A stretch of DNA of 64,000 bases from Elusimicrobiota bacterium (lineage in GTDB: Bacteria > Elusimicrobiota > Elusimicrobia > Elusimicrobiales > UBA9959), in NCBI GenBank assembly GCA_027340875.1, contig DAIENX010000007.1:10750-74749 (forward strand). Direction: 5' to 3'. Of the stretch, positions 7,373 through 31,375 are shown in pieces; the first letter of the stretch is position 1; each line of letters begins with the position of its first letter. The notes beneath the pieces were generated by a model. The model was not told the origin of the DNA. It worked only from the letters and a program-made list of their open reading frames with translations, and did no database searches. Both the position numbers and the translations under genes were made by a program.

Positions 7373-8779
7373 CTATTCGAAGCAGAACATCTTCATTATC
7401 TTTTCCGAGAGCGGCGCGCAGGCCTCCGGGCCGCGCGAGGAAGCCGCGCGGTAGCGCCAGTCCTCCCCTTTGCCGGCCCTGACGGCGCGGACGAAGTCCA
7501 GCATTTCCGGGATCAGGCAGGTCTCCGGGTTCATCAGCGGGTTCCAGCACCTCTTCGGCGACGCGGCCGTCAGCAGCTTGTAATATTCGCCGCAGAACGC
7601 GGCCCCGGACTTCGGGCGGGCCAGCTCCGCCCAGCCGGAGCAGAAGCCGTCGTACTTATTCCTCCCGTCCCTGAGCGCGGCGTAGGCCGAGAGGTACGGC
7701 AGGGCCGCCTCCTCGCAGGTACGCTTGAGGTCCGGATGTATGGAGCTCAGCGGAGCGCAGCCCTCCAGCGAGCCTTTCGAGAGGGAGACGCAGACGCCGT
7801 ACTCCGCCAGCGCGTCCCACAGGTGCTGCTCCGGCATATGCCTGGCGTCGCCGGAATAGTTCGCTATGACGGTGGATACGTCCACCTTCCGGCCGGCGCA
7901 CCTGTCCTCGCCTTTCGGCTGCCCGCCGCCGTCGCCGCTGTTGCGGTACTCGCGCAGCGCGGTGATGGCCTTGCCGCCGCGCATGTTCTTCAGCGCGGCT
8001 ACGGCGGCCTCGCGCACGCGCGGCGAATCGTCCTTCAGCGCCACTATCGCGGCGTCCACGGCCGCCGGCTTGTCGATCATACCGAAGGCTTCCACCGCGT
8101 AGGTCCTGGCCAGCGGGTCCCTGTCCTTCATCATCTCCAGGGCGGCCCCGAAGGCCTTGTCCCTGTCTATCTGCACCAGCGCCCGCAGCGCCTTGGTGCG
8201 CACGTAGATGCCGGGGTCGCCCAGCAAAGCCGATACCGGCTTATAAGTGGACGGCTCCGCTATCCTGCCCAAGGCCTGGACGGCCTTCTCCCTTATCTGC
8301 TCCTCCGGGTTTCTGAGGCTCTTCACGAGGAAGTCGACGGCCCGCTTGTCCCCTATAACGCCCAGCACCTTTATCTCCCACAGCATCGCGGCCGGGCCGC
8401 TCCGCTCCGCCGCGCGCAGTATGGCGGGCACGGCGTCCCCGCCCATGTCCTCGAGCGCCCTTTCGGCGGCGCCCCTTAATTCGGACTCGTCGGAACCGAG
8501 GAAGCCGATAAGGGCGGTCACGTTCCTCTCGCCGCGCGCCTTTACCAGGGTATTCCTGGCGGCCTGGCGCTTCTTGTCGTCCGGAGACTCGAGCAGGCGC
8601 AGCAGGGCCTTCTCGCTCTCAGCGTCCAGCGAGGCGGCGCGCACCTCGCGCATCGCGGCCTCCCTGACGGACCTGGCCTGCGCCGCCGGGGCGGCGGGCG
8701 CTTCTCCGGCCCGCGCCGGGACCCCGGCCGCGGCCAGCGCTATAGGGACCATCAGCATGCGCAATACGGTTCTCTTCAT
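7373..8779 (-). CDS. Exported HEAT-repeat (PBS-lyase-like HEAT) protein with a C-terminal Cys-rich domain
   Basis: Signal peptide MKRTVLRMLMVPIALAAAGVPARA. Multiple HEAT-like repeats (e.g. DDSPRVREAAVAALKNM). The C-terminal ~190 aa carry about 10 Cys and are homologous to the C-terminus of 27316-28365. SD AGGAGGAG precedes the ATG at 8779. This is the last gene of the long minus-strand train. Confidence 0.8.
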   Translation of the reverse strand: MKRTVLRMLMVPIALAAAGVPARAGEAPAAPAAQARSVREAAMREVRAASLDAESEKALLRLLESPDDKKRQAARNTLVKARGERNVTALIGFLGSDESELRGAAERALEDMGGDAVPAILRAAERSGPAAMLWEIKVLGVIGDKRAVDFLVKSLRNPEEQIREKAVQALGRIAEPSTYKPVSALLGDPGIYVRTKALRALVQIDRDKAFGAALEMMKDRDPLARTYAVEAFGMIDKPAAVDAAIVALKDDSPRVREAAVAALKNMRGGKAITALREYRNSGDGGGQPKGEDRCAGRKVDVSTVIANYSGDARHMPEQHLWDALAEYGVCVSLSKGSLEGCAPLSSIHPDLKRTCEEAALPYLSAYAALRDGRNKYDGFCSGWAELARPKSGAAFCGEYYKLLTAASPKRCWNPLMNPETCLIPEMLDFVRAVRAGKGEDWRYRAASSRGPEACAPLSEKIMKMFCFE

Positions 8780-8803
8780 TTCTCCTCCTGGCGCTCCGGG
8801 ACT

Positions 8804-9676
8804 TCAGGACCGTGGCAGTTCCACAGTTCCGAATCTTCTTATGTAGTCCGCGTACACGCCGTCGCACTCGCCGCGCATCGCGCAGCCGCGGCAGGCGGGT
8901 ATACGCCTCCTCTCGGGAAGCTTCTTCCGGTCCGCTTTCCGGAAACGCCCCTTACCGGCCACGTACTGCCTGGCCTGGCGCTCGAACATCTCCACCCTGT
9001 CGCTGACCTCCCGGAAGAGGCACGGCACCGGCGCGTTTATCAGCGCGGCTTCCGGCTCCCCGGCGCGCAGGCATTCGATTATGACCGGCGCGGCGTCCTT
9101 CACCCTGGGGGTGTGCGGCATCTCCCCGGCCCGCTCTCCGACGTATATGATGTTCCACTTCGTCATCCCCAGGCGTCCCAGCAGGGTCCTGATCCGCGGC
9201 AGGCGCGAGACGTTCTTCCTGACCACCGTGGTATTGGCCGAGATGTTGCGGAAGCCGGCGGCGCGCAGATTGGCCACGCCCTTCAGTATGCGGGCGAAGC
9301 CGCCCTTCGTGCCGGTGAGCCCGTCATGGACGGAAGCCCTGTCGCCGTGCACCGAGAAGCGCACCTCGGTCACCCCCGCCTCCAGCAGGGCCGCGACGAA
9401 CTTCCGGTCGGCGAACATCCAGCCGTTGGTGGTCAGCATGCGCTGCCTGAACCCCAGCCTTTTCGCCGCCCCGAAGATCGCGAAAATATCCTTCCTCAGC
9501 GAGGACTCCCCCCCCAGCACGTCCACCGCCTCCGCGCCGGCCCGCCTGGCCTCCACCAGCTCCGCCAGTATGGCGCGGTGGCTCTTGTCCGGCGCCTTGC
9601 CGCGGTACTCCCTGTCCCAGCAGAAGCCGCAGGAGTTGTTGCAGGTGTAGCCGGTGATCAGCTTGAGCGACCTCAT
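8804..9676 (-). CDS. Radical SAM protein, CX2CX5CX3Y family paralogue
   Basis: The track ORF is 5'-extended. The internal ATG at 9676 forms an ATGA overlap with the upstream stop. N-terminus is MRSLKLITGYTCNNSCGFC (CX3CX2C). Also TTNG and SVHG..VHDGLTG. The C-terminal motif is CRGCAMRGECDGVYADYIRRFG. Confidence 0.85.
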   Translation of the reverse strand: MRSLKLITGYTCNNSCGFCWDREYRGKAPDKSHRAILAELVEARRAGAEAVDVLGGESSLRKDIFAIFGAAKRLGFRQRMLTTNGWMFADRKFVAALLEAGVTEVRFSVHGDRASVHDGLTGTKGGFARILKGVANLRAAGFRNISANTTVVRKNVSRLPRIRTLLGRLGMTKWNIIYVGERAGEMPHTPRVKDAAPVIIECLRAGEPEAALINAPVPCLFREVSDRVEMFERQARQYVAGKGRFRKADRKKLPERRRIPACRGCAMRGECDGVYADYIRRFGTVELPRS

Positions 9677-10602
9677 CGCGCCCCCCCGCGCTTCCGGCCG
9701 GCCGGGGCCTTCTTGAAGCAGAAATAGGCGTCCAGCGTCCTGCCTGACTTCCCGGCCCCGTCCCCGGCCGCGAACAGCACCGGCGCCATCGTCATGCCGG
9801 CGCGCCTCGCGTAGGCGACGAGCGAGAGTATCTTCTGCAGGGCCGCCGGGCGCCCTCCGGCGGCGTAAAGCCCGCAGATCTCCCGCATCGCCGGGGTAAG
9901 ATCGCTTATTCCGCCGGTCTCGTACACCTTGTAGGCCTTCCTCCGGCCGGAGCCGGCGCCGCGCATCTCGTAATAGAAGCACTTCTTTTCCAGCCCCAGC
10001 CCCGCCATCGTCCGCTTCTGCCAGGGCGGCACGCGCAGCCCGGCCGGCGCTTCCCGCCTGAAATAGAGCTTGAAGTCGCGGCCGCGGCCCGGCGTCAGGT
10101 CCAGACAGACGGCCGACAGCGCGTCCAGGTCCGCCTTGGACGGAAGCCTCTTCAGGCCGCAGGCCCCGGAAAGCAGGCCGGCCTTCAACCGCCCGTCATA
10201 GACGGGATAAAGTTCCTCGTGGTAGACCTTCAGCCGCGGGGCGTTCTGGCCGGTGCCCCAGTCCAGGCCCAGCGTGGTCTGATGGGCCGCGCCCAGCGCC
10301 GCGCCGGCCTTCAGGAAGCGTCCGAGCGCGGCCAGGTCGTAGCTGTCTCCGAAAGAAGCGGCATAGCGCATTATCACCCGGCCCAGCGCCCCGCGCTCGC
10401 CGAAATCGCTGACGCTGAAGCGGAAGGCCCCCGGATCGGAGGAGGAGACGCAGACGTCGAGCTTCTGGTTGAGCGGCAGCCATTCTCCCTTCACCCTGCC
10501 GGCGAACAGCCCGGCGATGGCGGCCAGGCCGGCCGGCGGGACCTGAGGGGCCCCCTCGCCGAGGAGCCTGAACAGGCCGGGCAGGGACCCCGCGCTCCGC
10601 AT
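9673..10602 (-). CDS. Hypothetical protein, possible ABBA (alpha-beta-beta-alpha) prenyltransferase-like fold
   Basis: Size is 309 aa. A strand-pair pattern with a basic residue then Y recurs: LGLDWGTG..PRLKVYHE, VCLDLTPGRGRDFKLYFR, YYEMRGAGSGRRKAYKVYE, LFAAGDGAGKSGRTLDAYFCF. This resembles NphB/CloQ/PatF-type proteins. The start overlaps the upstream stop by 1 nt. Function is inferred from sequence pattern only. Confidence 0.6.
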   Translation of the reverse strand: MRSAGSLPGLFRLLGEGAPQVPPAGLAAIAGLFAGRVKGEWLPLNQKLDVCVSSSDPGAFRFSVSDFGERGALGRVIMRYAASFGDSYDLAALGRFLKAGAALGAAHQTTLGLDWGTGQNAPRLKVYHEELYPVYDGRLKAGLLSGACGLKRLPSKADLDALSAVCLDLTPGRGRDFKLYFRREAPAGLRVPPWQKRTMAGLGLEKKCFYYEMRGAGSGRRKAYKVYETGGISDLTPAMREICGLYAAGGRPAALQKILSLVAYARRAGMTMAPVLFAAGDGAGKSGRTLDAYFCFKKAPAGRKRGGAR

Positions 10603-11624
10603 CAGCGCCCCTCTATGTCGCTGGTAAGCTCGTTGTATTTCTTGAGCAGCCGCTTTTTGGCGAGGGCCTTGCGCATCTCTCCCGCGAACTCGGTGAACAG
10701 CAGGCCGGCCTTCACGTTGTTCCGGAGGTTGCCCACGATGTTGTTCTCGCGGTAGATGATGGACATGGCCCGCGTGTTGGACAGCCGGCCCGGGTGCAGC
10801 TTGTCTATGCTCAGCTCCGGGTCGGAGATATGGCCCAGGATGTAGCGGTTGCGCACGGCGTCGTCCTTGACCAGGTAGGCCAGGCAGGCGGAATAGATGT
10901 TGCCGTCGATGTTCACCGACAGCTCGGTGTTCATCGGCATCGGCGAAAGCCAGTTCTTAACGTTCAGCAGCGCCACGCCCTTGTCCTTCAGCGCGGCCAC
11001 CGCCGCCGGCACCAGCTCCTTCAGCTTCTTCCTCAGCAGCTTCAGCTTGGCGTCGGTGAACTTGGGGCCGCAGGAGACCATTATCCAGACCTTCTTGAAG
11101 CCCAGCTCCACCAGCGAATTGAAGCTCTCCAGCAGCCGCGGCGCGGTATCGGGCGTGATCACGGTGTAGCAGTAGGCGTCCAGGCCGTTGCGGAAGATCA
11201 TCGGCAGGTTCTTCACCACCAGCGGGTAGGTCTCGTCCTTGCAGCCCATCCGCGGCCTGTTCTTGTTGTGCGAGCGGCGGTCGCCGTCCAGGCTGACTAT
11301 CAGCAGCACGTCGTGCTTCTTGAAATAGGCTATCTTCGCCTCGTCGAGCAGCGTCGCGTTCGTCGTCATGATGAACTTGACCGTCTTGCCCAGCGAGGCC
11401 GCCTTGCGCTCGCCGTACTCTATCGTCCTGCGGATCAGGTCGAACGGCAGCAGCAGCGGTTCGCCGCCGAAGAACTCCATCTTCAGCTCCTTGTCCTGCG
11501 AGCCGCAGAGCAGGTCCACAGCCTTGAAGAGGTAGTCCTCGGGTATATACTTGTTCTCGAAATGGACCTTGCAGTAAGTGCAGCGCAGGTTGCAGGCCCA
11601 GGTGGTCACGACTAGAAGGTACAT
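10602..11624 (-). CDS. Radical SAM protein (anSME/peptide-maturase-like N-terminus, no obvious SPASM cysteines)
   Basis: MYLLVVTTWACNLRCTYCKV (CX3CX2C), FFGGEPLL, MTTNATLL, SLDGDRRSHNKNR. It lacks the C-terminal CX2CX5C motif of its neighbours. Confidence 0.85.
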   Translation of the reverse strand: MYLLVVTTWACNLRCTYCKVHFENKYIPEDYLFKAVDLLCGSQDKELKMEFFGGEPLLLPFDLIRRTIEYGERKAASLGKTVKFIMTTNATLLDEAKIAYFKKHDVLLIVSLDGDRRSHNKNRPRMGCKDETYPLVVKNLPMIFRNGLDAYCYTVITPDTAPRLLESFNSLVELGFKKVWIMVSCGPKFTDAKLKLLRKKLKELVPAAVAALKDKGVALLNVKNWLSPMPMNTELSVNIDGNIYSACLAYLVKDDAVRNRYILGHISDPELSIDKLHPGRLSNTRAMSIIYRENNIVGNLRNNVKAGLLFTEFAGEMRKALAKKRLLKKYNELTSDIEGR

Positions 11625-11628
11625 GTTC

Positions 11629-13392: not shown

Positions 13393-14239
13393 GGCGCCTC
13401 CGTGCCACCAGGAATTTAACCATCTCCACCGCGTAAGACTTTACGAAGCCGGGGCAGGAGACGGAATGCGGGCAGGCGGAGCAGACCCCGGCGGGCTTCA
13501 CCCGCAGGCGCGGCTGGAAATCGGCCCCGGAGACCTCCCCGGCGGGGCAGGGCAGGCCCAGCTTCTCCGCCACGCAGAGCGGCACCGCCCCGCCGGCAGG
13601 CAGCATGCACCTGAGCCCCAGCTTCCGGCGGAAGCCGGCTATGGCGGAAAGCGAGCGCAGCGCGGCGGCCGCGTCGGGTATCAGCCAGCGCCTGGCCCGG
13701 ACGCGCGCGCAGTCCGGCTCCAGCAGAGAAAGCACGATGTCCTTAACTCCGTATTTCTTCCTCAGTTCGCGCACCAGGGCAGGCGCGGAGGACTGGTTGC
13801 CGGAATAGACCAGGAAATTGACGGCGGTCCTTATCCCGGCGCGGCGCAGGTTCTTCAGCGCGGCTTCCTTTTTGGCGAAGCCGCCTTTTACCCCGGCGAG
13901 AGCGTCGTATCTCTCCGGGGCCGATTCGAAGAAGCTGAGCACGACCTCGTCCAGGCCCGCCCCGGCCAGCTCCTCCAGGTAATCGGCGGAGGCCAGCCTG
14001 AGGCCGTTCGTCAGCAGCGCCACGTACTTGCCGCCCTTCTTCAGCCGGCGCACGAGGCCGGGCAGGCCGGGATGCAGCGTGGGCTCGCCGCCGGTCACGT
14101 TCACCCGCGCGGGCCCGGGCTCGGCGGCCAGGGCGGCGGCCTGCCTGGCGGCCCCGTCCTTCCGCTTCACGCCGCCGGCGTCGCAGAACAGGCAGTCCTG
14201 GTTGCAGCCGCAGGAAAGTACCAGGCGGGAGGTCTTCAT
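13385..14239 (-). CDS. Radical SAM protein, CX2CX5C family paralogue
   Basis: The internal ATG at 14239 makes an ATGA overlap with the upstream stop. MKTSRLVLSCGCNQDCLFC, VTGGEPTLHPGL, LTNG. C-terminal CSACPHSVSCPGFV. Confidence 0.8.
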   Translation of the reverse strand: MKTSRLVLSCGCNQDCLFCDAGGVKRKDGAARQAAALAAEPGPARVNVTGGEPTLHPGLPGLVRRLKKGGKYVALLTNGLRLASADYLEELAGAGLDEVVLSFFESAPERYDALAGVKGGFAKKEAALKNLRRAGIRTAVNFLVYSGNQSSAPALVRELRKKYGVKDIVLSLLEPDCARVRARRWLIPDAAAALRSLSAIAGFRRKLGLRCMLPAGGAVPLCVAEKLGLPCPAGEVSGADFQPRLRVKPAGVCSACPHSVSCPGFVKSYAVEMVKFLVARRRRG

Positions 14240-26434: not shown

Positions 26435-26438
26435 AGTT

Positions 26439-27386
26439 CTATCCAAGAAGTATCCTCTCTGCCAGCCTGTCCGCGGCCATCCCGCCGGCCACGGCCTTGG
26501 CCCCGAAAAGCTTCTTCGCCATGCCGGAGTAATCAGGACGGCGTCCGCTCCCGGCGCCCAGAGCCTCCAGCCCGCCGGCCAGCATCTGCGCGGCCTGGCC
26601 CGGGTCCCTCGCGGCAAGGACGAGGTTGGAGTGATAGCACCTGCCGTCAGTGTCCACCGTGGTCCCGGGATTGAAAAGCGGCACCGGGCCTTCGCGCGAG
26701 GCGTTCTCGATGACAACGGCCCCGGAATCGGCCAGTTCCCTGATATGCCTCAGCGCCCTGGCGAGCTTGGCGAGGGCGGCCGGCGTCCATTCCCGGTAAT
26801 AGGCCGGCAGGACGTTGACCCTGGGCGGTCGTCCGCGCGAAGCGGCTATCACGCGCTTCAGGACCCCGAGCGAAGAAAGCGGGTCGCGCTCGGGCAGCAG
26901 CAGGTTCCAGATCAGGTTGGGCAGGGCCGCGAACCTGCGGCTGACGCTCACCGAGGAGTTAATGTTCACCTGCACCCACGGCCGGGCCGAGAAATACCGG
27001 AGCTTCGCCGCGTCCAGCAGCAGGCCGTTCGTGCCCACCTCCGCGCGGCCGCGGTAGCCGGCCGCCTCCAGCATGCCTATGCCAGTCCTCACCAGCCCGA
27101 AGCGCAGCAGCGGCTCCCCGCCGAAAAACTTGACCGCGCCGCCCCCCAGGGCGGCGGAACAATACTGCTTTATAGCGCTTTTCAGGACCGCCGCGGGCAT
27201 GTCCGCCCGCCCGGTCGCGACGGGACATTCGGGGCACGCCGACTGGCAGCGCCGGGTGAGGATAAGGGTCAGCTGCGGGGCCGGCGCGCCCCCGCGGCAG
27301 GCCGGAAGGGCCGAGTTACTGGCCCTTCGCCGGTTCCTTTCCTTTGGTCTGCTTGCCCTGCGGCTGTACGCCCATCCTCTTGTCAT
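26439..27386 (-). CDS. Radical SAM-like protein (divergent, GGEPLL type)
   Basis: LILTRRCQSACPEC (CX3CX2C), FFGGEPLLRFG, GTNGLLLD. It lacks the CX2CX5C tail. The ATG at 27386 overlaps the upstream gene by 71 nt and I found no better start, so the start is uncertain. Confidence 0.65.
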   Translation of the reverse strand: MTRGWAYSRRASRPKERNRRRASNSALPACRGGAPAPQLTLILTRRCQSACPECPVATGRADMPAAVLKSAIKQYCSAALGGGAVKFFGGEPLLRFGLVRTGIGMLEAAGYRGRAEVGTNGLLLDAAKLRYFSARPWVQVNINSSVSVSRRFAALPNLIWNLLLPERDPLSSLGVLKRVIAASRGRPPRVNVLPAYYREWTPAALAKLARALRHIRELADSGAVVIENASREGPVPLFNPGTTVDTDGRCYHSNLVLAARDPGQAAQMLAGGLEALGAGSGRRPDYSGMAKKLFGAKAVAGGMAADRLAERILLG

Positions 27387-28365
27387 CTTCAGCCTTCTGC
27401 TTTACCATGTCGGCCATTATCTTGTGGCGGAACGAGCTCGTGCAGTAGCCGGTGGCGAGCTTCTTGGCCAAAGGTGCGCAAACCGACGGGTCCCTGGACT
27501 GCAGCACGTGGAGCAGCCATTTCTCGTCCGGGGTGGAATCCCCCCTCACCAGCGCGGCGCTGAGCTGGCATTCTTTCTTCCGCGGGCCGCTCAGTTTGCC
27601 GCAGGCCGCCCGCCCGTTGATGAACAGGAAGTTGGATTCGCAGTTGGGCGGCAGACCGAGCGAGCGGCACTCCGGGGTCCGCCTCTTCGCGATAGAGTCG
27701 GTAATGAACCGACAGAAGTCGGGGCTGGGACGCCCCCCCCTGAACGCGTTGTTAACGAACTTCTCGCATTTCCCGTCGTTCGTCTTCCTGTTCAGGGCCG
27801 AATACATGAAATCGTAGTAATCGGCGGCGAAACAGACCCTCTCCAGGTTCTGCTGGACGCAGTCGAGACGGCCACCGCTGATAAGCCGGCAGACGCCGTA
27901 GTCCAGGAAGAGATCGAGTATAGTCTCATCCTCGGGCATGTTGCTGTTGGTATTGAAGAAGAACCGGAAGTTCTTGTCGAAATGCCTGACGATAGCGTCC
28001 GGGTTGTCCGAGAAGGCCTTTATACAGTCGCTGTCGGCCGCGTTCACCGGGACGTCCTCTGGCTGGGAATAATACCCGCCGGAGGCGCTTTCGTACTGGC
28101 CGCTCTGGGGGATATTGCTCTGGGTATCGGTCGACGCCTGGCTGACCAGCGCGGCGGCGTCCGGAGGAAGCGCCTGGCCGACCTCCTGTTGCTGGGCCGC
28201 GGGGTAGGCCGGAGCCGCCGGCTGCTCGATGCCTATCTTCGCGGCGTTCCTGTCGGTGACCATCTTCAGGGCGAAAAGCACGCCCATCAGCGCCACCAGC
28301 AGGCCGATAAGCAGCTTCGGGGACATCGCCCCGGGTCTGTAGCCTTTCCTCATCGCGCTCACCAT
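27316..28365 (-). CDS. Membrane-anchored or exported Cys-rich protein, paralogous to the C-terminal domain of 7373-8779
   Basis: N-terminal helix LLIGLLVALMGVLFAL, then a low-complexity linker, then about 230 aa with about 13 Cys. MPEDETILDLFLDYGVCRLISGGRLDC aligns with MPEQHLWDALAEYGVCVSLSKGSLEGC. DPSVCAPLAKKL aligns with PEACAPLSEKI. ATG 28353 is an alternative start. Confidence 0.7.
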   Translation of the reverse strand: MVSAMRKGYRPGAMSPKLLIGLLVALMGVLFALKMVTDRNAAKIGIEQPAAPAYPAAQQQEVGQALPPDAAALVSQASTDTQSNIPQSGQYESASGGYYSQPEDVPVNAADSDCIKAFSDNPDAIVRHFDKNFRFFFNTNSNMPEDETILDLFLDYGVCRLISGGRLDCVQQNLERVCFAADYYDFMYSALNRKTNDGKCEKFVNNAFRGGRPSPDFCRFITDSIAKRRTPECRSLGLPPNCESNFLFINGRAACGKLSGPRKKECQLSAALVRGDSTPDEKWLLHVLQSRDPSVCAPLAKKLATGYCTSSFRHKIMADMVKQKAEDDKRMGVQPQGKQTKGKEPAKGQ

Positions 28366-28655
28366 TGCCCGTGGCTGCCGTGCGAACCGTGCGAACCGTG
28401 CGAGCCGTGGCTGCTGTGCGAACCGTGCGAACCGTGCGAGGCGTGACTCACGTGGCCCGACGCGTTGCCGCTGCTGTGGAAGTAGTTTGCATGCGCTAGC
28501 GCGTCAGCGTGCTCTGTCACCACTCCGACGGCGGTGGCTACCAGTCCGAGGACGACCGCGGCCTTGACCACGTCGCTCTTGACTATCTTGCCCTCCTCGC
28601 TCGAAAGGAAGCGGGAAAGGTCTACCGACAGTTTCTTTTTCTGTTTTCCGGCCAT
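28359..28655 (-). CDS. Small membrane-anchored His-Xaa-Ser repeat protein (HxsA-like candidate rSAM substrate)
   Basis: Size is 98 aa, with a basic N-terminus and one hydrophobic helix (AAVVLGLVATAVGVV). The C-terminus holds nine consecutive H-x-S triplets: HVS HAS HGS HGS HSS HGS HGS HGS HGS, then HGQW. It lies 19 nt downstream of an rSAM/SPASM gene. Confidence 0.7.
   Translation of the reverse strand: MAGKQKKKLSVDLSRFLSSEEGKIVKSDVVKAAVVLGLVATAVGVVTEHADALAHANYFHSSGNASGHVSHASHGSHGSHSSHGSHGSHGSHGSHGQW
28369..28449 (-). repeat. Coding tandem repeat, 9-nt period nested in a 36-nt duplication, encoding (S-H-G)n
   Basis: The plus strand reads ccgtggctg ccgtgcgaa ccgtgcgaa ccgtgcgag, then a repeat of the same 36 nt with one mismatch (28369-28404 versus 28405-28440), then one degenerate unit. 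Confidence 0.9.
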
Positions 28656-28674
28656 ATTTCGCCCCGTTCTCGGT

Positions 28675-30144
28675 CTATACGTGTATCCCGGCCGCTCCGG
28701 CGCTGCTGCCGGCCCAGGATTCGAACAGCTTCCTAACCTTCGGCTCGCGCAGCCGCGCGAACAGGTAGTCCATCACTCCGGTGTAGATCTCGCACCGGAA
28801 GTTGGGATGATGCATGTACAGGTCGTTGTGCTCCGAATAGTTGAAGACCGGGCATACGCCGCAGTAGGGCTTGTAGACGCAGGAGGAGCAGAGCGTCTGT
28901 ATGTCCGTGACCGACGCGGTGACCACGCATTTCACCACTGAGCTCGACGCCAGGTCCGCGTAGGTCTCCTTCTTCAGGTCGCCCATGCAGAACGAATCGG
29001 TCCCCTCCGCCGCCAGCATGCGCCCCTCGTCGCAGGTGAAGACGCGGCCGTCGTAGTCGTAGGCGATCTGGCCTATCCCCGCCCCGCAGGGGGACCGGAG
29101 GTCCATGAAGTTCGGGTCGGTGCCGGTCAGGATCTTCCTCAGGAATATCCTGGCCGTGTGCTCGACCAGGGAGGCCTTCTTCTTCAGGTTCAGCTCTATG
29201 ATGTAGTCCAGCGCCTTCGTGTAGAACTCTATGTACTCCCGCGCCGTGTAGCCTATCCCAGGCCAGGCCTTCTTCGCCGCGCCGAACGGATTGAGGAAGC
29301 GCAGGAAGATGGAGCGGGCGCCGATGCGGACGTATTCGTCCACTATGTCCTTGTGGCGCCCCAGGGACTGCTGCGTCACCGTGAGCAGGGCGTCCGGCCC
29401 GTTCTTGGTCCTGGCCGTGCGCTTCTTGATGGTCTTCCACCACTTCACGACCTGGGCGTGGCTGCTGCCGCCGGTGGCCACCCGGTTCTTGTCGTGCAGG
29501 TCGGCGGGACCGTCCAGCGAGGTGCAGATGGCGACGTTGTGCTTGAGCAGGAAGTTCAGCCTCTCTCCGGTCATGGCCGACAGGTTGGTGACCAGGCTCA
29601 GGCTCACCTTCTTATCGAAGGTCTTCGTGCGGGCGGCGGCCTCGTTGACCACGAACTCCAGCACGGGCCAGTTGAGCAGCGGCTCCCCGCCCTGGAACTC
29701 TATGGTGATGTTGTCGGCCGGGGAAGCGAAGATGGCGTCCAGCACCCTGGAGGCCGTCTCCCTGTTCATGTCCAGGCCGCGGCCGCTCCTCTTGGACGAG
29801 GCGTGGCAATACACGCAGTCGTGGTTGCAGCGCCGCGTCAGCACGGCTATGTGCAGCGCCGGGCCGGAGAAGAGGAAATGGTTCTTCTCGAGCCACCTCT
29901 CGGCCAGGCCGGAAAAGTCCATGTAGTCGCGGACGAGGCCCTTGCGGGAGAGGTCCTTGTACTCAGCCGAGTCCTTGTCCAGCTTGCCGGCCGCCAGCCG
30001 CGAGAAGACATCGCCGGAGATGAAGGCGTGCTCGCCTATGTCGTTGGTGACCAGGTATTCGTCGCCCCACTTCTTGTAGCGCAGAAAACCGGTCTTCTTC
30101 GGGTCGAAGTCAATTCTTTCTTTTTGCTTTTCTGGCCTTCGCAT
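28675..30144 (-). CDS. Radical SAM/SPASM peptide-maturase-like protein (HxsB-like)
   Basis: LTRRCNHDCVYCHAS (CX3CX2C), FQGGEPLL, VTNLS, SLDGPADLHDKNR. SPASM-type cysteines are present (RSPCGAGIGQIAYDYDGRVFTCDEG, then CSSCVYKPYCGVCPVFNY). An N-terminal extension of about 105 aa precedes the core. Confidence 0.9.
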   Translation of the reverse strand: MRRPEKQKERIDFDPKKTGFLRYKKWGDEYLVTNDIGEHAFISGDVFSRLAAGKLDKDSAEYKDLSRKGLVRDYMDFSGLAERWLEKNHFLFSGPALHIAVLTRRCNHDCVYCHASSKRSGRGLDMNRETASRVLDAIFASPADNITIEFQGGEPLLNWPVLEFVVNEAAARTKTFDKKVSLSLVTNLSAMTGERLNFLLKHNVAICTSLDGPADLHDKNRVATGGSSHAQVVKWWKTIKKRTARTKNGPDALLTVTQQSLGRHKDIVDEYVRIGARSIFLRFLNPFGAAKKAWPGIGYTAREYIEFYTKALDYIIELNLKKKASLVEHTARIFLRKILTGTDPNFMDLRSPCGAGIGQIAYDYDGRVFTCDEGRMLAAEGTDSFCMGDLKKETYADLASSSVVKCVVTASVTDIQTLCSSCVYKPYCGVCPVFNYSEHNDLYMHHPNFRCEIYTGVMDYLFARLREPKVRKLFESWAGSSAGAAGIHV

Positions 30145-30571
30145 TTTTGTTTTCTTCCCACGGTATGGCTATTCCCAGAGCATCGGTCTTGTAGTCGCCG
30201 CTCTCCGCCTCTTTCAGCAGCTTCTCGATCTCCTTCTCCAGCTCCGCGTCCAGCACCGGGGCGGCGGCCGCCGGTTCCGCGGGTCTGGGCTGCGCGGAAA
30301 GAAGGGCCCTGACCACTATCCTCTCGCGCAGGGCCTGGTTCACGGCCGAGACCTTGAGGCGGAAAGCGTGGTGCAGCAGTTCGTTGCGGAACTCGCCCTC
30401 CAGGTCGCGGCCCGCCGGGAACTTGCCGTTCTTGGACTCCAGCACGGCCGAGAGAGCGCCGCCCTTGTCCTTGCCCAGCTTCACGTACGCGGCCTTGGAG
30501 AACGTGTATGCCGCGGCATAGACGCACTCGATAGGGTAAACGGAAAGATCTATCTTCACCTGTATTTTCAT
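30110..30571 (-). CDS. Small hypothetical protein, possible HxsD-like accessory protein
   Basis: Size is 153 aa. GAGGA SD lies 5 nt upstream of ATG 30571. The 3' end overlaps the start of the rSAM/SPASM gene by 35 nt. ELLHHAFRLKV is loosely reminiscent of the LLNDYxLRE signature I recall for HxsD. The C-terminus is acidic then basic. Confidence 0.55.
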   Translation of the reverse strand: MKIQVKIDLSVYPIECVYAAAYTFSKAAYVKLGKDKGGALSAVLESKNGKFPAGRDLEGEFRNELLHHAFRLKVSAVNQALRERIVVRALLSAQPRPAEPAAAAPVLDAELEKEIEKLLKEAESGDYKTDALGIAIPWEENKNAKARKAKRKN

Positions 30572-30590
30572 GCTGATCCTCTAACGCAGT

Positions 30591-31154
30591 TTATCTCAAC
30601 CTGCAGCAAAGCATTTCGCCAGTAGCCTGTATACCGCCGGGAGGGCCCATCTGGTACATCTGGTTGCCGACGCGGGCGGCCACTACGGCGGTCTTGGCGC
30701 CGAGACACATCGTGACGACGCCGTAAGAATAGCTCTGCCAGGAACAGTCCAGCGGGACCGTCGGGTCGGACCAGCGGGCCAGGCCGTTGCCGTCCGAGGT
30801 AAGCAGCCGGCCGTTGGCCTGCGTGCCGTCCTGCAGCTCGAAGCTGCCGACCACGTGGAGTTTTGCGGCCGGGGAAGGGGTGCCTATTCCAACATTGCCG
30901 CCGTCCCTGGCCAGCAGGGTCTGGCTGGTGGTAAGTATGCTGACGTAGCCGCCGTAGGGGGCAGGGTAATAAGTGGTCAGCGTAAGCGTCTCGGAGCCGA
31001 TGAAGCCCGGATGCCAGCAGATGAACATGAGGGCCATCAGCGCCACCACCGTCTTCCGGTGCGTCCTGCCGAGCCTGTCCAGCCAGGCAGGCAGGCCGGG
31101 CTGGTGAAGCCAGTCCAGCGAGAACCTTATAACGATATCGCGGTTATTTTTCAT
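30591..31154 (-). CDS. Membrane-anchored surface protein with a tail-fibre-like YYP-x-P-x-G-x-Y / GNVGIGT motif
   Basis: Start taken at ATG 31154 (MKNNRDIV). Hydrophobic helix VVALMALMFICW. TLTTYYPAPYGGYVSILTT, then GGNVGIGTPSPAAKLHVVG, a pattern common in phage tail-fibre and endosialidase-chaperone-like proteins. The tail is Cys-containing. This is the first gene after the promoter and leader. Confidence 0.6.
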   Translation of the reverse strand: MKNNRDIVIRFSLDWLHQPGLPAWLDRLGRTHRKTVVALMALMFICWHPGFIGSETLTLTTYYPAPYGGYVSILTTSQTLLARDGGNVGIGTPSPAAKLHVVGSFELQDGTQANGRLLTSDGNGLARWSDPTVPLDCSWQSYSYGVVTMCLGAKTAVVAARVGNQMYQMGPPGGIQATGEMLCCRLR

Positions 31155-31340
31155 AGTCGCCGCCCCCGATAAGCGCGAAAAGCACATCCTTGCGCAACGG
31201 CCCCTACGGTCGGGACGCGTTGCATATCACACGGACCGCCACGGGCTTGCTCCCATGGCACTCACCGATCCGGATTTCGTTCGCGCGCCTACGCGCATGC
31301 TAGCCATCCGCCGGCTTACGCCGGCGATACTTCGACTATA
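31155..31340 (-). promoter_or_regulatory. Long structured 5' leader (candidate cis-regulatory RNA) of the 24-kb gene train
   Basis: About 185 nt lie between the predicted -10 and ATG 31154. Minus-strand hairpins include CGCCGGC-GUAA-GCCGGCG (a GNRA loop), UGCGCG-UAGG-CGCGCG, GCCAUGGG-AGCAAG-CCCGUGGC, and a 12-bp bulged helix UGCAACGCGUCCC...GGGGCCGUUGCG. I could not recognise a known riboswitch class. Confidence 0.3.
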
Positions 31341-31346
31341 TTATTA

Positions 31347-31375
31347 ATTATAGCAGAAATCTTTCCGATTTTCAA
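31347..31375 (-). promoter_or_regulatory. Near-consensus sigma70 promoter for the long minus-strand operon
   Basis: The minus strand reads TTGAAA (31375-31370), a 17-nt spacer, then TATAAT (31352-31347). It sits in an AT-rich island inside otherwise GC-rich DNA. Confidence 0.6.

What the first reader, a model, noticed from the sequence alone, without database searches (positions are those of the whole stretch)
7373..31375. A 24-kb, 23-gene translationally coupled operon packed with 14 radical SAM genes around a nitrogenase paralogue
From the near-consensus promoter at 31347-31375 down to 7373, every gene is on the minus strand and no intergenic gap exceeds 24 nt. Junctions are ATGA overlaps at 9673, 14236, 15183, 19119, 24324 and 25307. 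There are 1-nt overlaps at 10602, 8-nt overlaps at 13385 and 22598, and overlaps of 7-71 nt or gaps of 2-4 nt elsewhere.

The content is highly unusual. It holds 14 rSAM genes, a NifH-like/component-1-like pair, an A24-peptidase-like membrane protein, a possible ABBA-fold protein, a His-Xaa-Ser repeat peptide and two exported Cys-rich proteins. No canonical pathway I know combines these.

Hypothesis 1: a multi-step anaerobic tailoring pathway for a tetrapyrrole-type or other redox cofactor. All characterised non-nitrogenase members of this superfamily (DPOR, COR, CfbCD) reduce tetrapyrroles, and NirJ/AhbC/AhbD-type and HemN-type rSAM enzymes tailor tetrapyrrole side chains.

Hypothesis 2: a very large RiPP-type peptide-maturation system. 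This rests on the repeat peptide, the peptidase, the SPASM enzyme and the prenyltransferase-like fold.

From memory only, a similar co-occurrence was reported in groundwater Elusimicrobia, with function unknown.
Basis: partly seen in the sequence, partly recalled or inferred. Interest (0 to 1): 0.95.

Follow-up and report, generated by a model that had tools for sequence, protein, structure and literature searches.

The report
Giant peptide-tailoring operon with nitrogenase-like enzyme
This 24-kb operon from an uncultured Elusimicrobia bacterium looks like a factory that chemically remodels a small exported histidine-serine repeat peptide. A nitrogenase-like enzyme of unknown function is built into it, which gives that enzyme family its first concrete, testable candidate substrate.

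Summary
There are 23 co-directional genes at 7373-31187 on the minus strand, with no gap above 24 nt and six ATGA overlaps. Fourteen are radical SAM (rSAM) genes, and an 11/12 promoter match lies at 31347-31375.

The window comes from an Elusimicrobia MAG. The NifH-NifD fusion and its NifK-like partner belong with the 'Group VI' nitrogenase-like (NFL) proteins of Méheust et al. 2020. A 2026 review still lists their function as unknown, with a tetrapyrrole role proposed.

The operon begins with a His-Xaa-Ser (Hxs) peptide-maturation module:
- HxsD;
- HxsB, which passes its curated cut-off;
- a 98-aa HxsA4 precursor, which also passes.

Eleven of the rSAM genes are old HxsC-like paralogues. One membrane protein carries prepilin-peptidase (A24) motifs. 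One unknown protein models as an ABBA prenyltransferase.

HxsA4 peptides with the same partners recur beside NFL genes in other Elusimicrobia and in Myxococcota, where the order is HxsB-NflHD-NflK-HxsA. Similar clusters in three other phyla show no NFL in the stretch of DNA available.

Best reading: an expanded Hxs peptide-maturation system with the NFL as an accessory ATP-driven reductase. NFL action on the peptide is inferred only from gene linkage. I found no paper in the held library linking Hxs to NFL.

The parts
31347..31375 (-). Sigma-70-type promoter-like site, TTGAAA-17-TATAAT preceded by TG. It lies about 160 nt upstream of the g1 ATG.
   Evidence: 11 of 12 match; sequence read. A consensus match only; no transcript data.
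30591..31187 (-). g1: 198-aa protein with an N-terminal hydrophobic segment, a GNVGIGT...KLHVVG motif and C-terminal cysteines. Function unknown.
   Evidence: No Pfam or NCBIfam hit. Partial matches to g1 lie upstream of HxsD in L001, L150, L151 and L155; in L147 the match lies just after HxsD.
30110..30571 (-). g2: HxsD-like small protein. In E. coli, HxsD is the partner of HxsC.
   Evidence: TIGR03976 scores 48.2 bits against a cut-off of 50. Orthologues in L001 and L150-L155 carry a precomputed PF27806 HxsD hit.
28675..30144 (-). g3: HxsB, a radical SAM/SPASM maturase.
   Evidence: TIGR03978 scores 489 bits against a cut-off of 370. The closest homologues are named HxsB in Elusimicrobia MAGs.
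28359..28655 (-). g4: HxsA4-type precursor peptide, 98 aa. It has a Lys-rich N-terminus, a conserved FLSSEEGK motif, a 17-residue hydrophobic stretch, an ADA|L signal-peptidase-like site, 10 His-Xaa-Ser units and a C-terminal SHGQW.
   Evidence: NF038313 scores 64.4 bits against a cut-off of 55. Twelve family members from 12 loci are compared.
27316..28365 (-). g5: membrane-anchored or exported Cys-rich protein (12 Cys).
   Evidence: No family hit. A gene of about 300 aa with an N-terminal anchor and 11-14 Cys follows HxsA4 in L001, L134, L152 and L153; in L154 the same kind of gene occupies the equivalent position, but the ORF before it has no HxS repeats.
26439..27386 (-). g6: divergent rSAM of the HxsB/anSME-like group, without a SPASM domain.
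   Evidence: Pfam Radical_SAM scores 21.6 bits, below the cut-off. CQSACPEC motif present. BLAST links it to g20 and g3.
25307..26434 (-). g7: HxsC-like rSAM.
   Evidence: Best NCBIfam hits are HxsC4 (94 bits) and HxsC (90 bits), both below cut-off. Orthologues at 45-49% identity lie in L007, L095, L096, L108, L125, L147, L150, L151 and L155.
24324..25310 (-). g8: HxsC-like rSAM.
   Evidence: Orthologues at 39-51% identity lie in L009, L108, L151, L152, L153 and L155.
23596..24327 (-). g9: short HxsC-like rSAM lacking the C-terminal Cys motif.
   Evidence: An orthologue lies directly upstream of NflHD in L007 and L134.
22598..23617 (-). g10: HxsC-like rSAM.
20389..22605 (-). g11: NflHD, a 738-aa fusion. 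A NifH-like ATPase/[4Fe-4S] domain (residues 1-265) is joined by a variable linker to a NifD-like domain.
   Evidence: Pfam Fer4_NifH 222 bits and Oxidored_nitro 54.6 bits. Best NCBIfam hit is CfbC at 222 bits against a cut-off of 402. In an alignment of 22 fusions the P-loop, Cys93, Cys129, Cys342 and Cys417 are invariant.
19119..20408 (-). g12: NflK, a NifK/BchN-like partner of 429 aa.
   Evidence: Oxidored_nitro 141 bits. Best NCBIfam hit is BchN at 54 bits against a cut-off of 324. Asp38 is invariant and Cys42 is present in 10 of 11 orthologues.
18235..19122 (-). g13: HxsC-like rSAM.
   Evidence: HxsC4 126 bits against a cut-off of 500.
17331..18245 (-). g14: HxsC-like rSAM.
   Evidence: HxsC 104 bits against a cut-off of 268. 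Orthologues at 38-48% identity lie in L009, L108, L152 and L153.
16399..17328 (-). g15: HxsC-like rSAM, one of the two best-conserved partners.
   Evidence: Orthologues at 46-55% identity lie in L009, L069, L095, L101, L108, L123, L147, L151, L152 and L155.
15183..16394 (-). g16: polytopic membrane protein with prepilin-peptidase (A24) aspartyl-protease motifs. It is the candidate leader peptidase.
   Evidence: ED..KIRN and WPAGDAKLF are invariant in 6 orthologues. PF01478 is the only Pfam family hit, by 2 of 6 orthologues with best E = 0.0016. The orthologue in L155 carries a precomputed weak PF01478 hit.
14236..15186 (-). g17: HxsC-like rSAM, the best-conserved protein of the system.
   Evidence: Orthologues at 53-62% identity are found across Elusimicrobia, Myxococcota, Azambacteria, Schekmanbacteria and Omnitrophica. 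An AF2 model (pLDDT 78) is closest to the RiPP maturase SkfB, E = 6e-13.
13385..14239 (-). g18: HxsC-like rSAM.
11629..13392 (-). g19: 587-aa protein with two rSAM-like halves. Only the first half has CX3CX2C.
   Evidence: Pfam finds 2 Radical_SAM stretches. HxsC4 scores 73 bits. Similar double rSAM proteins of 671-681 aa occur in L153 and L155.
10602..11624 (-). g20: rSAM of the peptide-maturase (PapB/HxsB/anSME-like) group, without a SPASM domain.
   Evidence: PapB 143 bits and HxsB 114 bits, both below cut-off.
9673..10602 (-). g21: protein with an ABBA (aromatic prenyltransferase) fold.
   Evidence: AF2 model with pLDDT 76 and pTM 0.79 shows five beta-beta-alpha-alpha repeats. Foldseek top hits are DMATS1 (8db1, E = 6e-8), KgpF, PirF, LimF, PagF and FunA. 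Orthologues lie in L152, L153 and L154. The family is rare, with 42 representatives.
8804..9676 (-). g22: HxsC-like rSAM.
   Evidence: HxsC4 93.5 bits. An rSAM-HEAT fusion in L002 links g22 and g23.
7373..8779 (-). g23: exported protein with a signal peptide, HEAT repeats and a Cys-rich C-terminal domain. It is the last gene of the operon.
   Evidence: HEAT_2 101 bits. Only weak similarity to PBS-lyase-type HEAT proteins. The convergent gene 5866-7365 ends 7 nt away.
31506..32984 (-). Probable associated gene upstream: a B12-binding rSAM, BchE-like by best hit.
   Evidence: Pfam B12-binding plus Radical_SAM. BchE 214 bits against a cut-off of 481. B12-binding rSAM-type genes sit inside HxsA4 clusters in L151, L154 and L155.
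1497..7365 (.). Probable associated genes downstream: three HemN/HemZ-like rSAMs (5866-7365 plus strand; 2960-4372 and 1497-2960 minus strand) and an M20 peptidase (4492-5682 minus strand).
   Evidence: all are below curated cut-offs. HemN-like rSAMs lie inside HxsA4 clusters in L108, L150, L153 and L154. The M20 and OTCase-like genes are interleaved with a different Hxs/NFL cluster in L017.

Best explanation
The operon is an expanded His-Xaa-Ser (Hxs) peptide-maturation and export system of the HxsA4 type.

Proposed course of events:
1. A 98-aa precursor is made. It has a conserved Lys-rich leader, a signal-peptide-like hydrophobic stretch and 10 His-Xaa-Ser units ending in SHGQW.
2. It is modified in the cytoplasm by HxsB (rSAM/SPASM) with HxsD.
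3. It is further modified by a battery of eleven anciently diverged HxsC-like rSAM enzymes with a C-terminal auxiliary-cluster motif, and by two SPASM-less maturase-like rSAMs.
4. It is probably prenylated by an ABBA-fold enzyme.
5. It is processed by an A24-type membrane aspartyl peptidase and delivered to the envelope. There the Cys-rich anchored protein g5 and the exported HEAT/Cys-rich protein g23 are likely partners.

The Group VI nitrogenase-like pair (NflHD fusion plus NflK) is an accessory tailoring module of this system. I infer that it uses ATP hydrolysis in the NifH domain to deliver low-potential electrons through an inter-subunit Fe-S cluster, and that it reduces a double bond in a conjugated, His-derived structure made on the peptide by the rSAM enzymes. 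This would be analogous to what DPOR, COR and CfbCD do on tetrapyrroles.

What is shown: gene content, family assignments, folds and motifs, operon compaction, and conservation of the gene set with HxsA4 peptides across phyla.

What is inferred: every chemical step, the order of steps, export, and above all that the NFL substrate is the peptide.
For: Family assignments: HxsB scores 489 bits against a cut-off of 370, HxsA4 64.4 against 55, and HxsD 48.2 against 50. HxsD orthologues carry PF27806. For nine of the eleven paralogues the best NCBIfam hit is HxsC or HxsC4; g18 scores best on MoaA and PqqE with HxsC third, and g19 scores best on HxsC4. They form one BLAST family, and nine have CX2CX5C at the C-terminus.

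Structural and motif evidence:
- The g17 model is closest to the RiPP maturase SkfB.
- g21 has an ABBA fold, with peptide prenyltransferases among the top hits, including the His-geranyltransferase LimF.
- g16 has A24 motifs and weak PF01478 hits.

Synteny:
- L001 (85% identity) and L134 (about 65%) keep the whole gene order.
- HxsA4 peptides lie beside NFL genes in L017, L069, L108, L123, L134, L150/L009 and L151.
- In the Myxococcota loci L069 and L123 the order is HxsD-HxsB-NflHD-NflK-HxsA4, so the NFL genes sit between maturase and precursor.
- Of 38 NflK-positive loci of at least 15 kb, 15 hold HxsC-like rSAMs and 6 hold an HxS-repeat ORF within 10 kb. The figure is 0 of 43 for control NifH/CfbC loci (Fisher p = 2e-6 and 0.009).

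Against a free-tetrapyrrole route: Méheust et al. report uroporphyrinogen III capacity in only a subset of the genomes that carry the paralogue.

Precedent: E. coli HxsB/C/D mature HxsA by an rSAM-dependent +8 Da modification and export it (PMC13128918).
Against: - Linkage is not universal. Of the 38 NflK-positive loci, 23 show no Hxs or HxsC-like gene within 10 kb. Examples are the cultured Pseudenhygromyxa sp. WMMC2535 and GWA2_69_24.
- HxsA4 multi-rSAM clusters in Azambacteria, Schekmanbacteria, Omnitrophica and one further contig show no NFL within the DNA available. The NFL is therefore not needed for the core chemistry.
- No HxsC paralogue reaches a curated HxsC or HxsC4 cut-off.
- Every characterised tetrapyrrole-type relative of the NFL acts on a tetrapyrrole, and no nitrogenase-like enzyme is known to act on a peptide.
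- HemN-like, BchE-like and, in L156, TP_methylase-fused rSAMs accompany the clusters.
- There are no transcript, protein or product data.
Confidence: 0.55

Rival explanations
1. This is the published hypothesis: tetrapyrrole or other small-molecule cofactor tailoring. The NFL reduces a free tetrapyrrole, and many of the rSAM enzymes (HemN-like, BchE-like, NirJ/Ahb-like) tailor its side chains. The Hxs peptide module is either an unrelated neighbour or supplies a His-rich peptide that binds or carries the cofactor.
For: - NFL best hits are CfbC and BchN/BchB.
- Three HemN/HemZ-like rSAMs and one BchE-like rSAM flank the operon.
- g23 has weak PBS-lyase-type HEAT similarity.
- An rSAM-TP_methylase fusion lies beside NFL genes in L156.
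- Méheust et al. and the 2026 review propose this role.
- Of 38 NFL loci, 23 have no Hxs genes nearby.
Against: - All of these matches are far below curated cut-offs: CfbC 222 against 402, BchN 54 against 324, BchE 214 against 481, HemN at most 126 against 325, and AhbD/NirJ at most 77 against 500.
- HemN-like and B12-rSAM enzymes are also common peptide and natural-product methylases (general knowledge).
- HemN-like and B12-rSAM genes also sit in HxsA4 clusters that show no NFL.
- No hem or cob biosynthesis gene lies in the 64-kb window.
- Only a subset of carrier genomes can make uroporphyrinogen III.
- In Myxococcota the NFL genes lie between HxsB and HxsA4.
Confidence: 0.2
2. The NFL is not a tailoring enzyme. 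It would instead be an ATP-driven low-potential electron source, or an Fe-S cluster scaffold like NifEN, that serves the many rSAM enzymes of the operon by reducing or loading their clusters.
For: - The NifH domain is intact, with the P-loop, switch regions and both cluster cysteines invariant.
- Fourteen to nineteen rSAM enzymes need reduced [4Fe-4S] clusters.
- The NFL is dispensable in some HxsA4 clusters, as a helper would be.
- The D and K subunits keep few conserved cluster ligands.
Against: - The D and K partners are conserved as a pair and fused to the H domain, which an electron donor alone would not need.
- NFL relatives occur with no rSAM nearby.
- No precedent is known to me.
Confidence: 0.1
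3. This rival concerns physiological role. The system would be an anti-phage HXS-type defence, as in E. coli, with the matured HxsA4 peptide acting in the envelope against incoming phage DNA. The NFL and the extra rSAMs would only elaborate the effector.
For: - The HxsD-HxsB-HxsA core is shared with the E. coli HXS system, whose matured HxsA is a periplasmic effector.
- HxsA4 has a signal-peptide-like N-terminus.
- The locus differs strongly between related genomes: L017 shares 83-85% DNA identity with the window at two genes but only about 40% protein identity across the cluster, as defence islands do.
- A barnase/barstar pair and a PIN-PhoH gene lie nearby.
Against: - HxsA4 lacks the peptidoglycan-binding domain of E. 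coli HxsA.
- There are no PADLOC hits beyond generic rSAM similarity.
- Individual paralogues are conserved at 50-60% identity across phyla, and the system occupies more than 10 kb of a contig from a CPR (Azambacteria) MAG. Both fit a conserved cellular function better than a mobile defence system.
- The HXS paper found 99.7% of its systems in Pseudomonadota.
Confidence: 0.12

Closest known systems
Group VI nitrogenase-like (NFL) gene clusters of groundwater Elusimicrobia (Méheust et al. 2020, ISME J; preprint 10.1101/765248; reviewed in Chem Rev 2026, PMC13474568)
   Same: - The organism group is the same.
- The closest full-length homologues of g11 include proteins of the genomes named in that paper: GWA2_69_24, RBG_16_66_12 and GWF2_62_30.
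- The NifH domain has the P-loop and two cluster cysteines, and the D and K subunits are divergent and lack FeMo-co ligands.
- There are many adjacent rSAM genes, up to 13 reported there, some with B12 or HemN_C domains.
- No NifB was detected.
   Different: - The paper and the review propose a tetrapyrrole substrate. In the texts I could search they do not mention a precursor peptide, HxsA, HxsB or HxsD.
- Here the cluster begins with an Hxs module and most of the rSAM genes are HxsC-like.
- In this window H and D are fused.
HxsABCD His-Xaa-Ser system (Haft and Basu 2011 families TIGR03976-03979; E. coli HXS anti-phage system, Nat Commun 2026, PMC13128918)
   Same: - It has an HxsD-like protein, an HxsB rSAM/SPASM maturase and an HxS-repeat substrate with an export signal.
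- It has HxsC-like rSAMs.
- HxsD precedes HxsB.
   Different: - The known system has four genes in the order D-B-C-A. Here there are 23 genes in the order D-B-A-..., with eleven HxsC-like paralogues, none reaching the HxsC cut-off.
- The substrate is a 98-aa peptide with 10 repeats (7-28 in relatives) and no peptidoglycan-binding domain.
- Added components are an NFL reductase, an ABBA-fold enzyme, an A24-like peptidase and Cys-rich exported proteins.
- The host phyla are Elusimicrobia, Myxococcota, CPR (Azambacteria), Schekmanbacteria and Omnitrophica rather than Pseudomonadota.
DPOR (BchLNB), COR (BchXYZ) and CfbCD, the ATP-dependent nitrogenase-like reductases of tetrapyrroles
   Same: - They share the two-component logic: a NifH-type ATPase with a bridging [4Fe-4S], plus a NifD/K-type catalytic component with few cluster ligands.
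- The invariant Asp38 plus Cys42 in NflK and two Cys in the D domain recall the 3-Cys-plus-Asp cluster of DPOR. This rests on my recollection of the DPOR structure.
   Different: - Scores are far below the family cut-offs.
- H is fused to D.
- The genomic partners are peptide-maturation genes, not bch, chl or cfb genes.
Cyanobactin-type and DMATS-type ABBA prenyltransferases (PagF, KgpF, PirF, LimF, DMATS1)
   Same: g21 models as the ten-stranded alpha-beta-beta-alpha barrel, with TM-scores of 0.5-0.65 and E down to 6e-8. Several of the hits prenylate RiPP peptides, and LimF does so on histidine.
   Different: - There is no sequence-level family match and identity is only 9-17%.
- Donor-binding residues were not checked.
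- The family is small, with 42 representatives.

Membership tests
Hxs (His-Xaa-Ser) peptide-maturation system | A substrate protein or peptide with tandem His-Xaa-Ser repeats (HxsA family) | tested here: met
   g4 scores 64.4 bits on NF038313 (HxsA4) against a cut-off of 55 and has 10 HxS units.
Hxs (His-Xaa-Ser) peptide-maturation system | HxsB, an rSAM/SPASM maturase (TIGR03978) | tested here: met
   g3 scores 489.4 bits against a cut-off of 370, matching profile positions 4-466 of 466.
Hxs (His-Xaa-Ser) peptide-maturation system | HxsC, a second smaller rSAM (TIGR03977, or NF038332 for type 4) | tested here: not met
   Most of the eleven paralogues have HxsC or HxsC4 as best hit. The top scores are 106 bits against 268 (g17) and 126 bits against 500 (g13). 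They are related, but none is a member by the curated thresholds.
Hxs (His-Xaa-Ser) peptide-maturation system | HxsD small protein (TIGR03976 / PF27806) | tested here: inconclusive
   g2 scores 48.2 bits against a cut-off of 50. The 88%-identical orthologue in L001 and the orthologues in L150-L155 carry a precomputed PF27806 hit.
Hxs (His-Xaa-Ser) peptide-maturation system | [quoted passage not shown] | tested here: not met
   The order here is D-B-A, followed by 19 further genes.
Group VI nitrogenase-like (NFL) system | NifH-like protein with Walker A and switch motifs and the two [4Fe-4S] cysteines | tested here: met
   GKGGIGKS, Cys93, Cys129, CDPK.D and D..GD.VCGGF are invariant in 22 fusions.
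Group VI nitrogenase-like (NFL) system | Divergent NifD- and NifK-like partners that lack FeMo-co ligands and most P-cluster cysteines | tested here: met
   In the D domain only Cys342 and Cys417 are invariant. Cys417 aligns with the G/S-C-x4-G-D/E-D motif of nitrogenase-type chains in PDB entries 9d9u and 9fmg; I take that position to be the alpha-Cys154 site from memory. No invariant His was found. In NflK only Cys42 (10 of 11) and Asp38 are conserved.
Group VI nitrogenase-like (NFL) system | Phylogenetic placement of NifH in the Group VI clade | not tested
   No tree with labelled Group I-V references was built. Membership rests on the closest full-length homologues being proteins of genomes named by Méheust et al..
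Group VI nitrogenase-like (NFL) system | Co-occurrence with many rSAM genes and absence of NifB | tested here: met
   There are 14 rSAM genes in the operon and 5 flanking it. None has NifB among its listed NCBIfam hits.
DPOR / COR / CfbCD tetrapyrrole reductases | Score above the curated equivalog cut-offs for BchL/X/CfbC and BchN/B/Y/Z | tested here: not met
   CfbC 222 against 402; BchX 177 against 331; BchL 170 against 345; BchN 54 against 324; BchB 38 against 509.
DPOR / COR / CfbCD tetrapyrrole reductases | Genomic association with tetrapyrrole biosynthesis genes | tested here: not met
   None lies in the 64-kb window. The rest of the genome was not available.
Peptidase A24 (prepilin / type IV leader peptidase) | Polytopic membrane protein with two catalytic Asp, the second in a G-x-G-D-x-K-L type motif | tested here: inconclusive
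   D25, in ED..KIRN, and D103, in WPAGDAKLF, are invariant. The motif comparison with A24 rests on my memory of the family. PF01478 is hit by only 2 of 6 orthologues (E = 0.0016) and not by the window protein. A weak precomputed hit exists in L155.
ABBA aromatic prenyltransferases | Ten-stranded antiparallel barrel built of alpha-alpha-beta-beta repeats | tested here: met
   The AF2 model has pLDDT 76 and pTM 0.79. Seventy-eight PDB matches have E <= 0.001, and the 50 listed are all prenyltransferases of this fold.
ABBA aromatic prenyltransferases | Residues that bind the prenyl-diphosphate donor; prenyl-transfer activity | not tested
   The alignment depth was only 6 close sequences. No residue-level comparison was made.

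The most novel reading that the evidence does not exclude
Group VI nitrogenase-like enzymes, or at least the large subset linked to HxsA4 clusters, would be the first nitrogenase-family reductases to act on a ribosomally made peptide. They would use ATP-coupled low-potential electrons to reduce a His-derived conjugated heterocycle, built by HxsB- and HxsC-type radical SAM enzymes on His-Xaa-Ser repeats. The result would be an exported, prenylated and heavily modified repeat peptide of a new chemical class.
Probability: 0.35. Interest if true: 0.92.

Novelty: new variant of a known kind. Interest (0 to 1): 0.8.

Why it matters
[quoted passage not shown] The only proposal so far, a tetrapyrrole substrate, rests on analogy.

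This window, together with the related loci, shows that many of these enzymes sit inside a conserved multi-phylum peptide-maturation system with an identifiable precursor, HxsA4. That turns the question into a direct experiment: co-express the peptide and its maturases with and without the NFL, and read the mass.

If the link is real, it would have three consequences:
- It would extend nitrogenase-family chemistry from N2, tetrapyrroles and small sulfur compounds to peptides.
- It would define one of the most rSAM-dense RiPP-like pathways known.
- It would show that the recently characterised E. coli HXS system is the minimal member of a much larger and more elaborate family, widespread in uncultured lineages.

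Tried and rejected
- One rSAM paralogue per repeat: rejected. Repeat number varies from 7 to 28 among HxsA4 peptides, while the same orthologous rSAM set recurs.
- rSAM paralogues as housekeeping enzymes (MoaA, HemN/HemW, NirJ/AhbC/AhbD, PqqE, viperin): rejected. All scores are far below curated cut-offs.
- Recent tandem duplication of the rSAM genes: rejected. The paralogues are only 24-33% identical to one another, whereas individual orthologues are 45-62% identical across phyla.
- Other kinds of repeat peptide in NFL loci that lack HxS peptides: none found by a generic tandem-repeat search of six-frame translations. The small ORFs in L002 are not repeat peptides.
- Known defence-system models (PADLOC): only generic rSAM similarity to pVip.
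- tRNA and Rfam scans of the window: nothing found.
- The genome-contig scan with the NflHD alignment was swamped by generic NifH patterns. Only about 10 of its 80 loci were true NFL fusions. The rest served as a control set.
As a result g16 was not modelled, g21 was modelled on a shallow 6-sequence alignment, and g17 on its window paralogues.
- The C-terminal auxiliary-cluster region of g17 is poorly modelled (pLDDT below 50), so no Twitch or SPASM assignment was made from structure.

Full report
**1. The observation**

The region 7373-31187 holds 23 minus-strand genes. I fixed their frames by codon-position GC (position 3 is 0.77-0.93) and by homology.
- Six ATGA overlaps, at 25307, 24324, 19119, 15183, 14236 and 9673.
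- A 1-nt overlap at 10602.
- 8-nt overlaps at 22598 and 13385.
- Other overlaps of 7-71 nt.
- Gaps of 2-24 nt.

A sigma-70-type site (TTGAAA, 17 nt, TATAAT preceded by TG; 11 of 12 positions) lies at 31375-31347. Terminator-like hairpins inside the operon are no more frequent than in shuffled sequence. The operon ends 7 nt from a convergent gene.

Pfam finds Radical_SAM in 14 genes. One of them, g6, is below the cut-off. All 14 carry CX3CX2C.

The system probably extends further. Five more rSAM genes lie just outside the stated coordinates:
- A B12-binding, BchE-like gene at 31506-32984.
- A SPASM-type gene at 33420-34907.
- Three HemN/HemZ-like genes at 5866-7365, 2960-4372 and 1497-2960.

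**2. Source and the nitrogenase-like pair**

g11 (738 aa) is a NifH domain fused to a NifD-like domain. g12 (429 aa) is NifK/BchN-like.

- An 85%-identical protein is annotated from an Elusimicrobia MAG.
- More distant full-length homologues (32-36% identity) include proteins of Elusimicrobia GWA2_69_24, RBG_16_66_12 and GWF2_62_30.
- Those are genomes named by Méheust et al. 2020. That paper defined a 'Group VI' nitrogenase paralogue co-occurring with up to 13 rSAM genes and proposed a tetrapyrrole substrate.
- A 2026 Chem Rev review still lists the function as unknown.

In 22 aligned fusions the P-loop, the switch regions and both NifH cluster cysteines are invariant. The D domain keeps only Cys342 and Cys417, and no invariant His. 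Cys417 aligns with the G/S-C-x4-G-D/E-D motif of nitrogenase-type chains in the PDB; I take that to be the alpha-Cys154 position from memory. NflK keeps Asp38, and Cys42 in 10 of 11 sequences.

Scores against CfbC, BchL, BchX, BchN and BchB are far below the curated cut-offs. The pair works like an ATP-dependent NFL reductase with a simple Fe-S cluster. It is not a member of DPOR, COR or CfbCD.

**3. The key finding: an Hxs module heads the operon**

NCBIfam identifies three Hxs components:
- g3 is HxsB (489 bits against a cut-off of 370).
- g4 is an HxsA4 His-Xaa-Ser repeat protein (64.4 against 55).
- g2 is HxsD-like (48.2 against 50).

Orthologues of g2 carry Pfam PF27806 HxsD.

Eleven rSAM genes (g7-g10, g13-g15, g17-g19, g22) form one family:
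- Most have HxsC or HxsC4 as best match, but far below the cut-offs.
- They are only 24-33% identical to one another.
- They share GGEP and HG..HD..TG..GSF motifs.
- Nine have a C-terminal CX2CX5C-G motif, together with an upstream P-x-C. This suggests an auxiliary cluster.
- A model of g17 (pLDDT 78) is closest to the RiPP maturase SkfB.

g6 and g20 are SPASM-less relatives of the HxsB/PapB/anSME group.

**4.

g16 has invariant ED..KIRN and WPAGDAKLF motifs. These resemble the two aspartate motifs of prepilin peptidases; the comparison rests on my memory of that family. Peptidase_A24 is the only Pfam family hit by its orthologues, by 2 of 6 with E = 0.0016. A further orthologue in L155 carries a weak precomputed hit.

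g21 has no sequence-family hit. It models (pLDDT 76, pTM 0.79) as five beta-beta-alpha-alpha repeats. By Foldseek it matches only ABBA prenyltransferases. These include the peptide prenyltransferases KgpF, PirF, PagF and the histidine geranyltransferase LimF, with E down to 6e-8 and TM-scores of 0.5-0.65. Its family is rare, with 42 representatives among 1.84 billion.

**5. Comparative evidence**

*Close relatives.* L001 (85% identity) and L134 (about 65%) keep the whole order from HxsD onward.

*HxsA4 peptides.* I found twelve in twelve loci. They share these features:
- A Lys-rich N-terminus.
- A conserved [FY]L[STN]xxE.K motif.
- A hydrophobic stretch of about 17 residues, usually followed by an AxA-type site.
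- In the two Myxococcota peptides, a T-R-R-x-L-V twin-arginine-like motif before the hydrophobic stretch.
- 7-28 HxS units.
- A C-terminal aromatic residue (SHGQW, GSW or GSY).

*HxsA4 beside NFL genes.* They lie next to NFL genes in L017, L108, L134, L150 (contiguous with L009, RBG_16_66_12) and L151. They also do so in the Myxococcota loci L069 and L123, where the order is HxsD-HxsB-NflHD-NflK-HxsA4.

*Recurring orthologues.* Orthologues of individual paralogues recur with the NFL:
- g17 at 53-62% identity.
- g15 at 46-55%.
- g7 at 45-49%.
- g8, g14 and the g16 membrane protein.

g17 and g15 are better conserved than the NFL proteins themselves.

*Counts.* Among 38 NflK-positive loci of at least 15 kb:
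- 15 hold HxsC-like rSAMs.
- 12 hold clear g7, g15 or g17 orthologues.
- 6 hold an HxS-repeat ORF within 10 kb.

The corresponding figure is 0 of 43 in control NifH/CfbC loci from the same scan (Fisher p = 2e-6, 4e-5 and 0.009).

*From the other side.* HxsB homologues at 47-59% identity are abundant in Elusimicrobia MAGs.

**6. Limits of the association**

Of the 38 NFL loci, 23 show no Hxs-related gene within 10 kb. They include the cultured Pseudenhygromyxa sp. WMMC2535 and GWA2_69_24. More distant NFL relatives sit in other contexts, for example beside a FecCD-type importer (L157).

Conversely, HxsA4 multi-rSAM clusters occur in a Candidatus Azambacteria (CPR) MAG, a Schekmanbacteria MAG, an Omnitrophica MAG and one further contig. 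These contain HxsD, HxsB, a Cys-rich anchored protein, orthologues of g17, g8, g14, g7, g15, g16 and g21, and HemN-like and B12 rSAMs. HxsA4 itself was found in three of the four; the ORF after HxsB in the Omnitrophica locus has no HxS repeats. They show no NFL in the DNA available, although some contigs end soon after.

My reading is that the HxsA4 multi-rSAM system is the conserved core. The NFL is an accessory module that has joined it in Elusimicrobia and Myxococcota.

**7. Mechanism**

What is shown: the parts list, the family, fold and motif assignments, the compaction of the operon, and conserved linkage across phyla.

What comes from precedent: in E. coli, HxsB, HxsC and HxsD mature HxsA, with N-terminal processing and a +8 Da change on an SHRSS motif. 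The product acts in the periplasm (PMC13128918).

What I infer for this operon:
1. HxsA4 is recognised through its conserved leader.
2. It is modified repeatedly on its HxS units by HxsB/HxsD and the HxsC-like enzymes, and possibly by the flanking HemN-like and B12 rSAMs acting as methylases.
3. It is prenylated by g21.
4. It is cleaved by g16.
5. It is exported to join g5 and g23 in the envelope.

I propose that the NFL carries out an ATP-driven two-electron reduction of a conjugated His-derived structure on the peptide. I give this 0.35-0.5. It is the simplest way to explain why the NFL genes lie between maturase and precursor in Myxococcota, and why the best-conserved partners of the NFL are peptide-maturase-type rSAMs.

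The rival explanations are:
- The published tetrapyrrole hypothesis (about 0.2).
- A helper role as an electron donor or cluster scaffold (about 0.1).

At the level of physiology, an HXS-like anti-phage role is possible (about 0.12). Conservation across phyla, including in a CPR MAG, fits a conserved envelope or cofactor function better.

**8. Novelty**

The co-occurrence of this NFL with many rSAM genes is published. I found no link to the His-Xaa-Ser system or to any precursor peptide in the following:
- the Méheust preprint or its held supplements;
- the 2026 review section on Group VI;
- any paper in the held library retrieved by 'His-Xaa-Ser', the Hxs gene names, or 'nitrogenase-like' together with 'RiPP'.

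I therefore rate the operon as a new variant of a known kind. It is an Hxs system expanded from 4 to at least 23 genes and joined to a Group VI NFL. The link gives a direct experimental route to an open question.

**9. Rest of the window**

The remaining genes are ordinary:
- bamA-skp-lpxD-lpxC-fabZ-lpxA-lpxI.
- An MsbA-like ABC transporter.
- relA/spoT.
- Sulfur-transport genes.
- Cytochrome b561 and a multihaem cytochrome c.

The organism is therefore a diderm that uses haem, but no haem or corrin biosynthesis gene lies in these 64 kb.

Noticed in passing
window 33177-34907 (+): A perfect sigma-70 consensus (TTGACA-17-TATAAT, 12 of 12) at 33177-33205 is followed by a 41-aa ORF at 33218-33343 (MTGGKMPAIAKSPVKPAKKLNKTLKADKKLSRYCRSGRVLW). 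After that comes a PapB-like rSAM/SPASM gene at 33420-34907 (215 bits against a cut-off of 340). This may be a second, small RiPP unit, transcribed divergently from the big operon.
   Followed up: partly
L017 (JAJZPF010000005, 'bacterium SKS1.bin115') against window 280-1452 and 4492-5688: L017 is 83-85% identical in DNA to the window only at the OTCase-like gene and the M20 peptidase gene. It nevertheless carries a different Hxs/NFL cluster, about 40% identical in protein, interleaved with those two genes. Either the locus is a variable island in closely related genomes, or the OTCase-like and M20 genes belong to the system.
   Followed up: partly
window 31188-31346 (-): A GC-rich leader of about 160 nt with obvious hairpins (for example GCCGGCGTAAGCCGGC) lies between the promoter-like site and the first ATG. 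No Rfam family matches it.
   Followed up: no
L150 plus L009 (Elusimicrobia RBG_16_66_12, MGUL01000186, about 35.7-76.6 kb): The two loci overlap. Together they form a cluster of about 35 kb or more, with HxsD-HxsB-HxsA4 (146 aa, 26 repeats), three separate NFL sets and more than ten rSAM genes.
   Followed up: partly
L156 13596-15293 and 8073-9989 (Elusimicrobia, ERZ27254745 k141_864251): Beside three NFL sets lie an rSAM fused to a TP_methylase domain (PF00590) and an rSAM fused to Sel1 repeats. The TP_methylase family includes tetrapyrrole methylases, but also diphthine synthase, which acts on a modified histidine (general knowledge). The fusion therefore does not decide between the hypotheses.
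   Followed up: no
L157 10001-14674 (ERZ21878447 ctg45165l): A 1106-aa protein has two NifH domains plus a NifD-like domain and a NifK-like partner. It sits directly after a periplasmic-binding-protein/FecCD/ABC importer and before an ABC exporter. This is a different context for a distant NFL relative.
   Followed up: no
L069 14327-14713 and L123 11358-11792 (Myxococcota): The myxobacterial HxsA4 peptides have a T-R-R-x-L-V motif before the hydrophobic stretch and an AQA site after it. This looks like a twin-arginine export signal. The Elusimicrobia peptides lack the Arg pair.
   Followed up: no
window 36669-39236 (-): A secreted-ribonuclease (barnase-like) and barstar pair lies at 36669-37672, and a PIN-PhoH fusion at 37809-39236. 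These sit between the rSAM region and the bamA-lpx housekeeping block.
   Followed up: no
window 153-1445 (+): A 430-aa aspartate/ornithine carbamoyltransferase-family protein, longer than the roughly 310 aa I recall for typical OTCases, lies next to the HemN-like rSAM genes. Its orthologue lies between HxsB and NflHD in L017.
   Followed up: partly
L002 683-2626 (Elusimicrobia GWA2_69_24): A single 647-aa protein fuses an HxsC-like rSAM domain to HEAT repeats. This matches the adjacent gene pair g22 (rSAM) and g23 (HEAT) in the window and suggests that the two act together.
   Followed up: no
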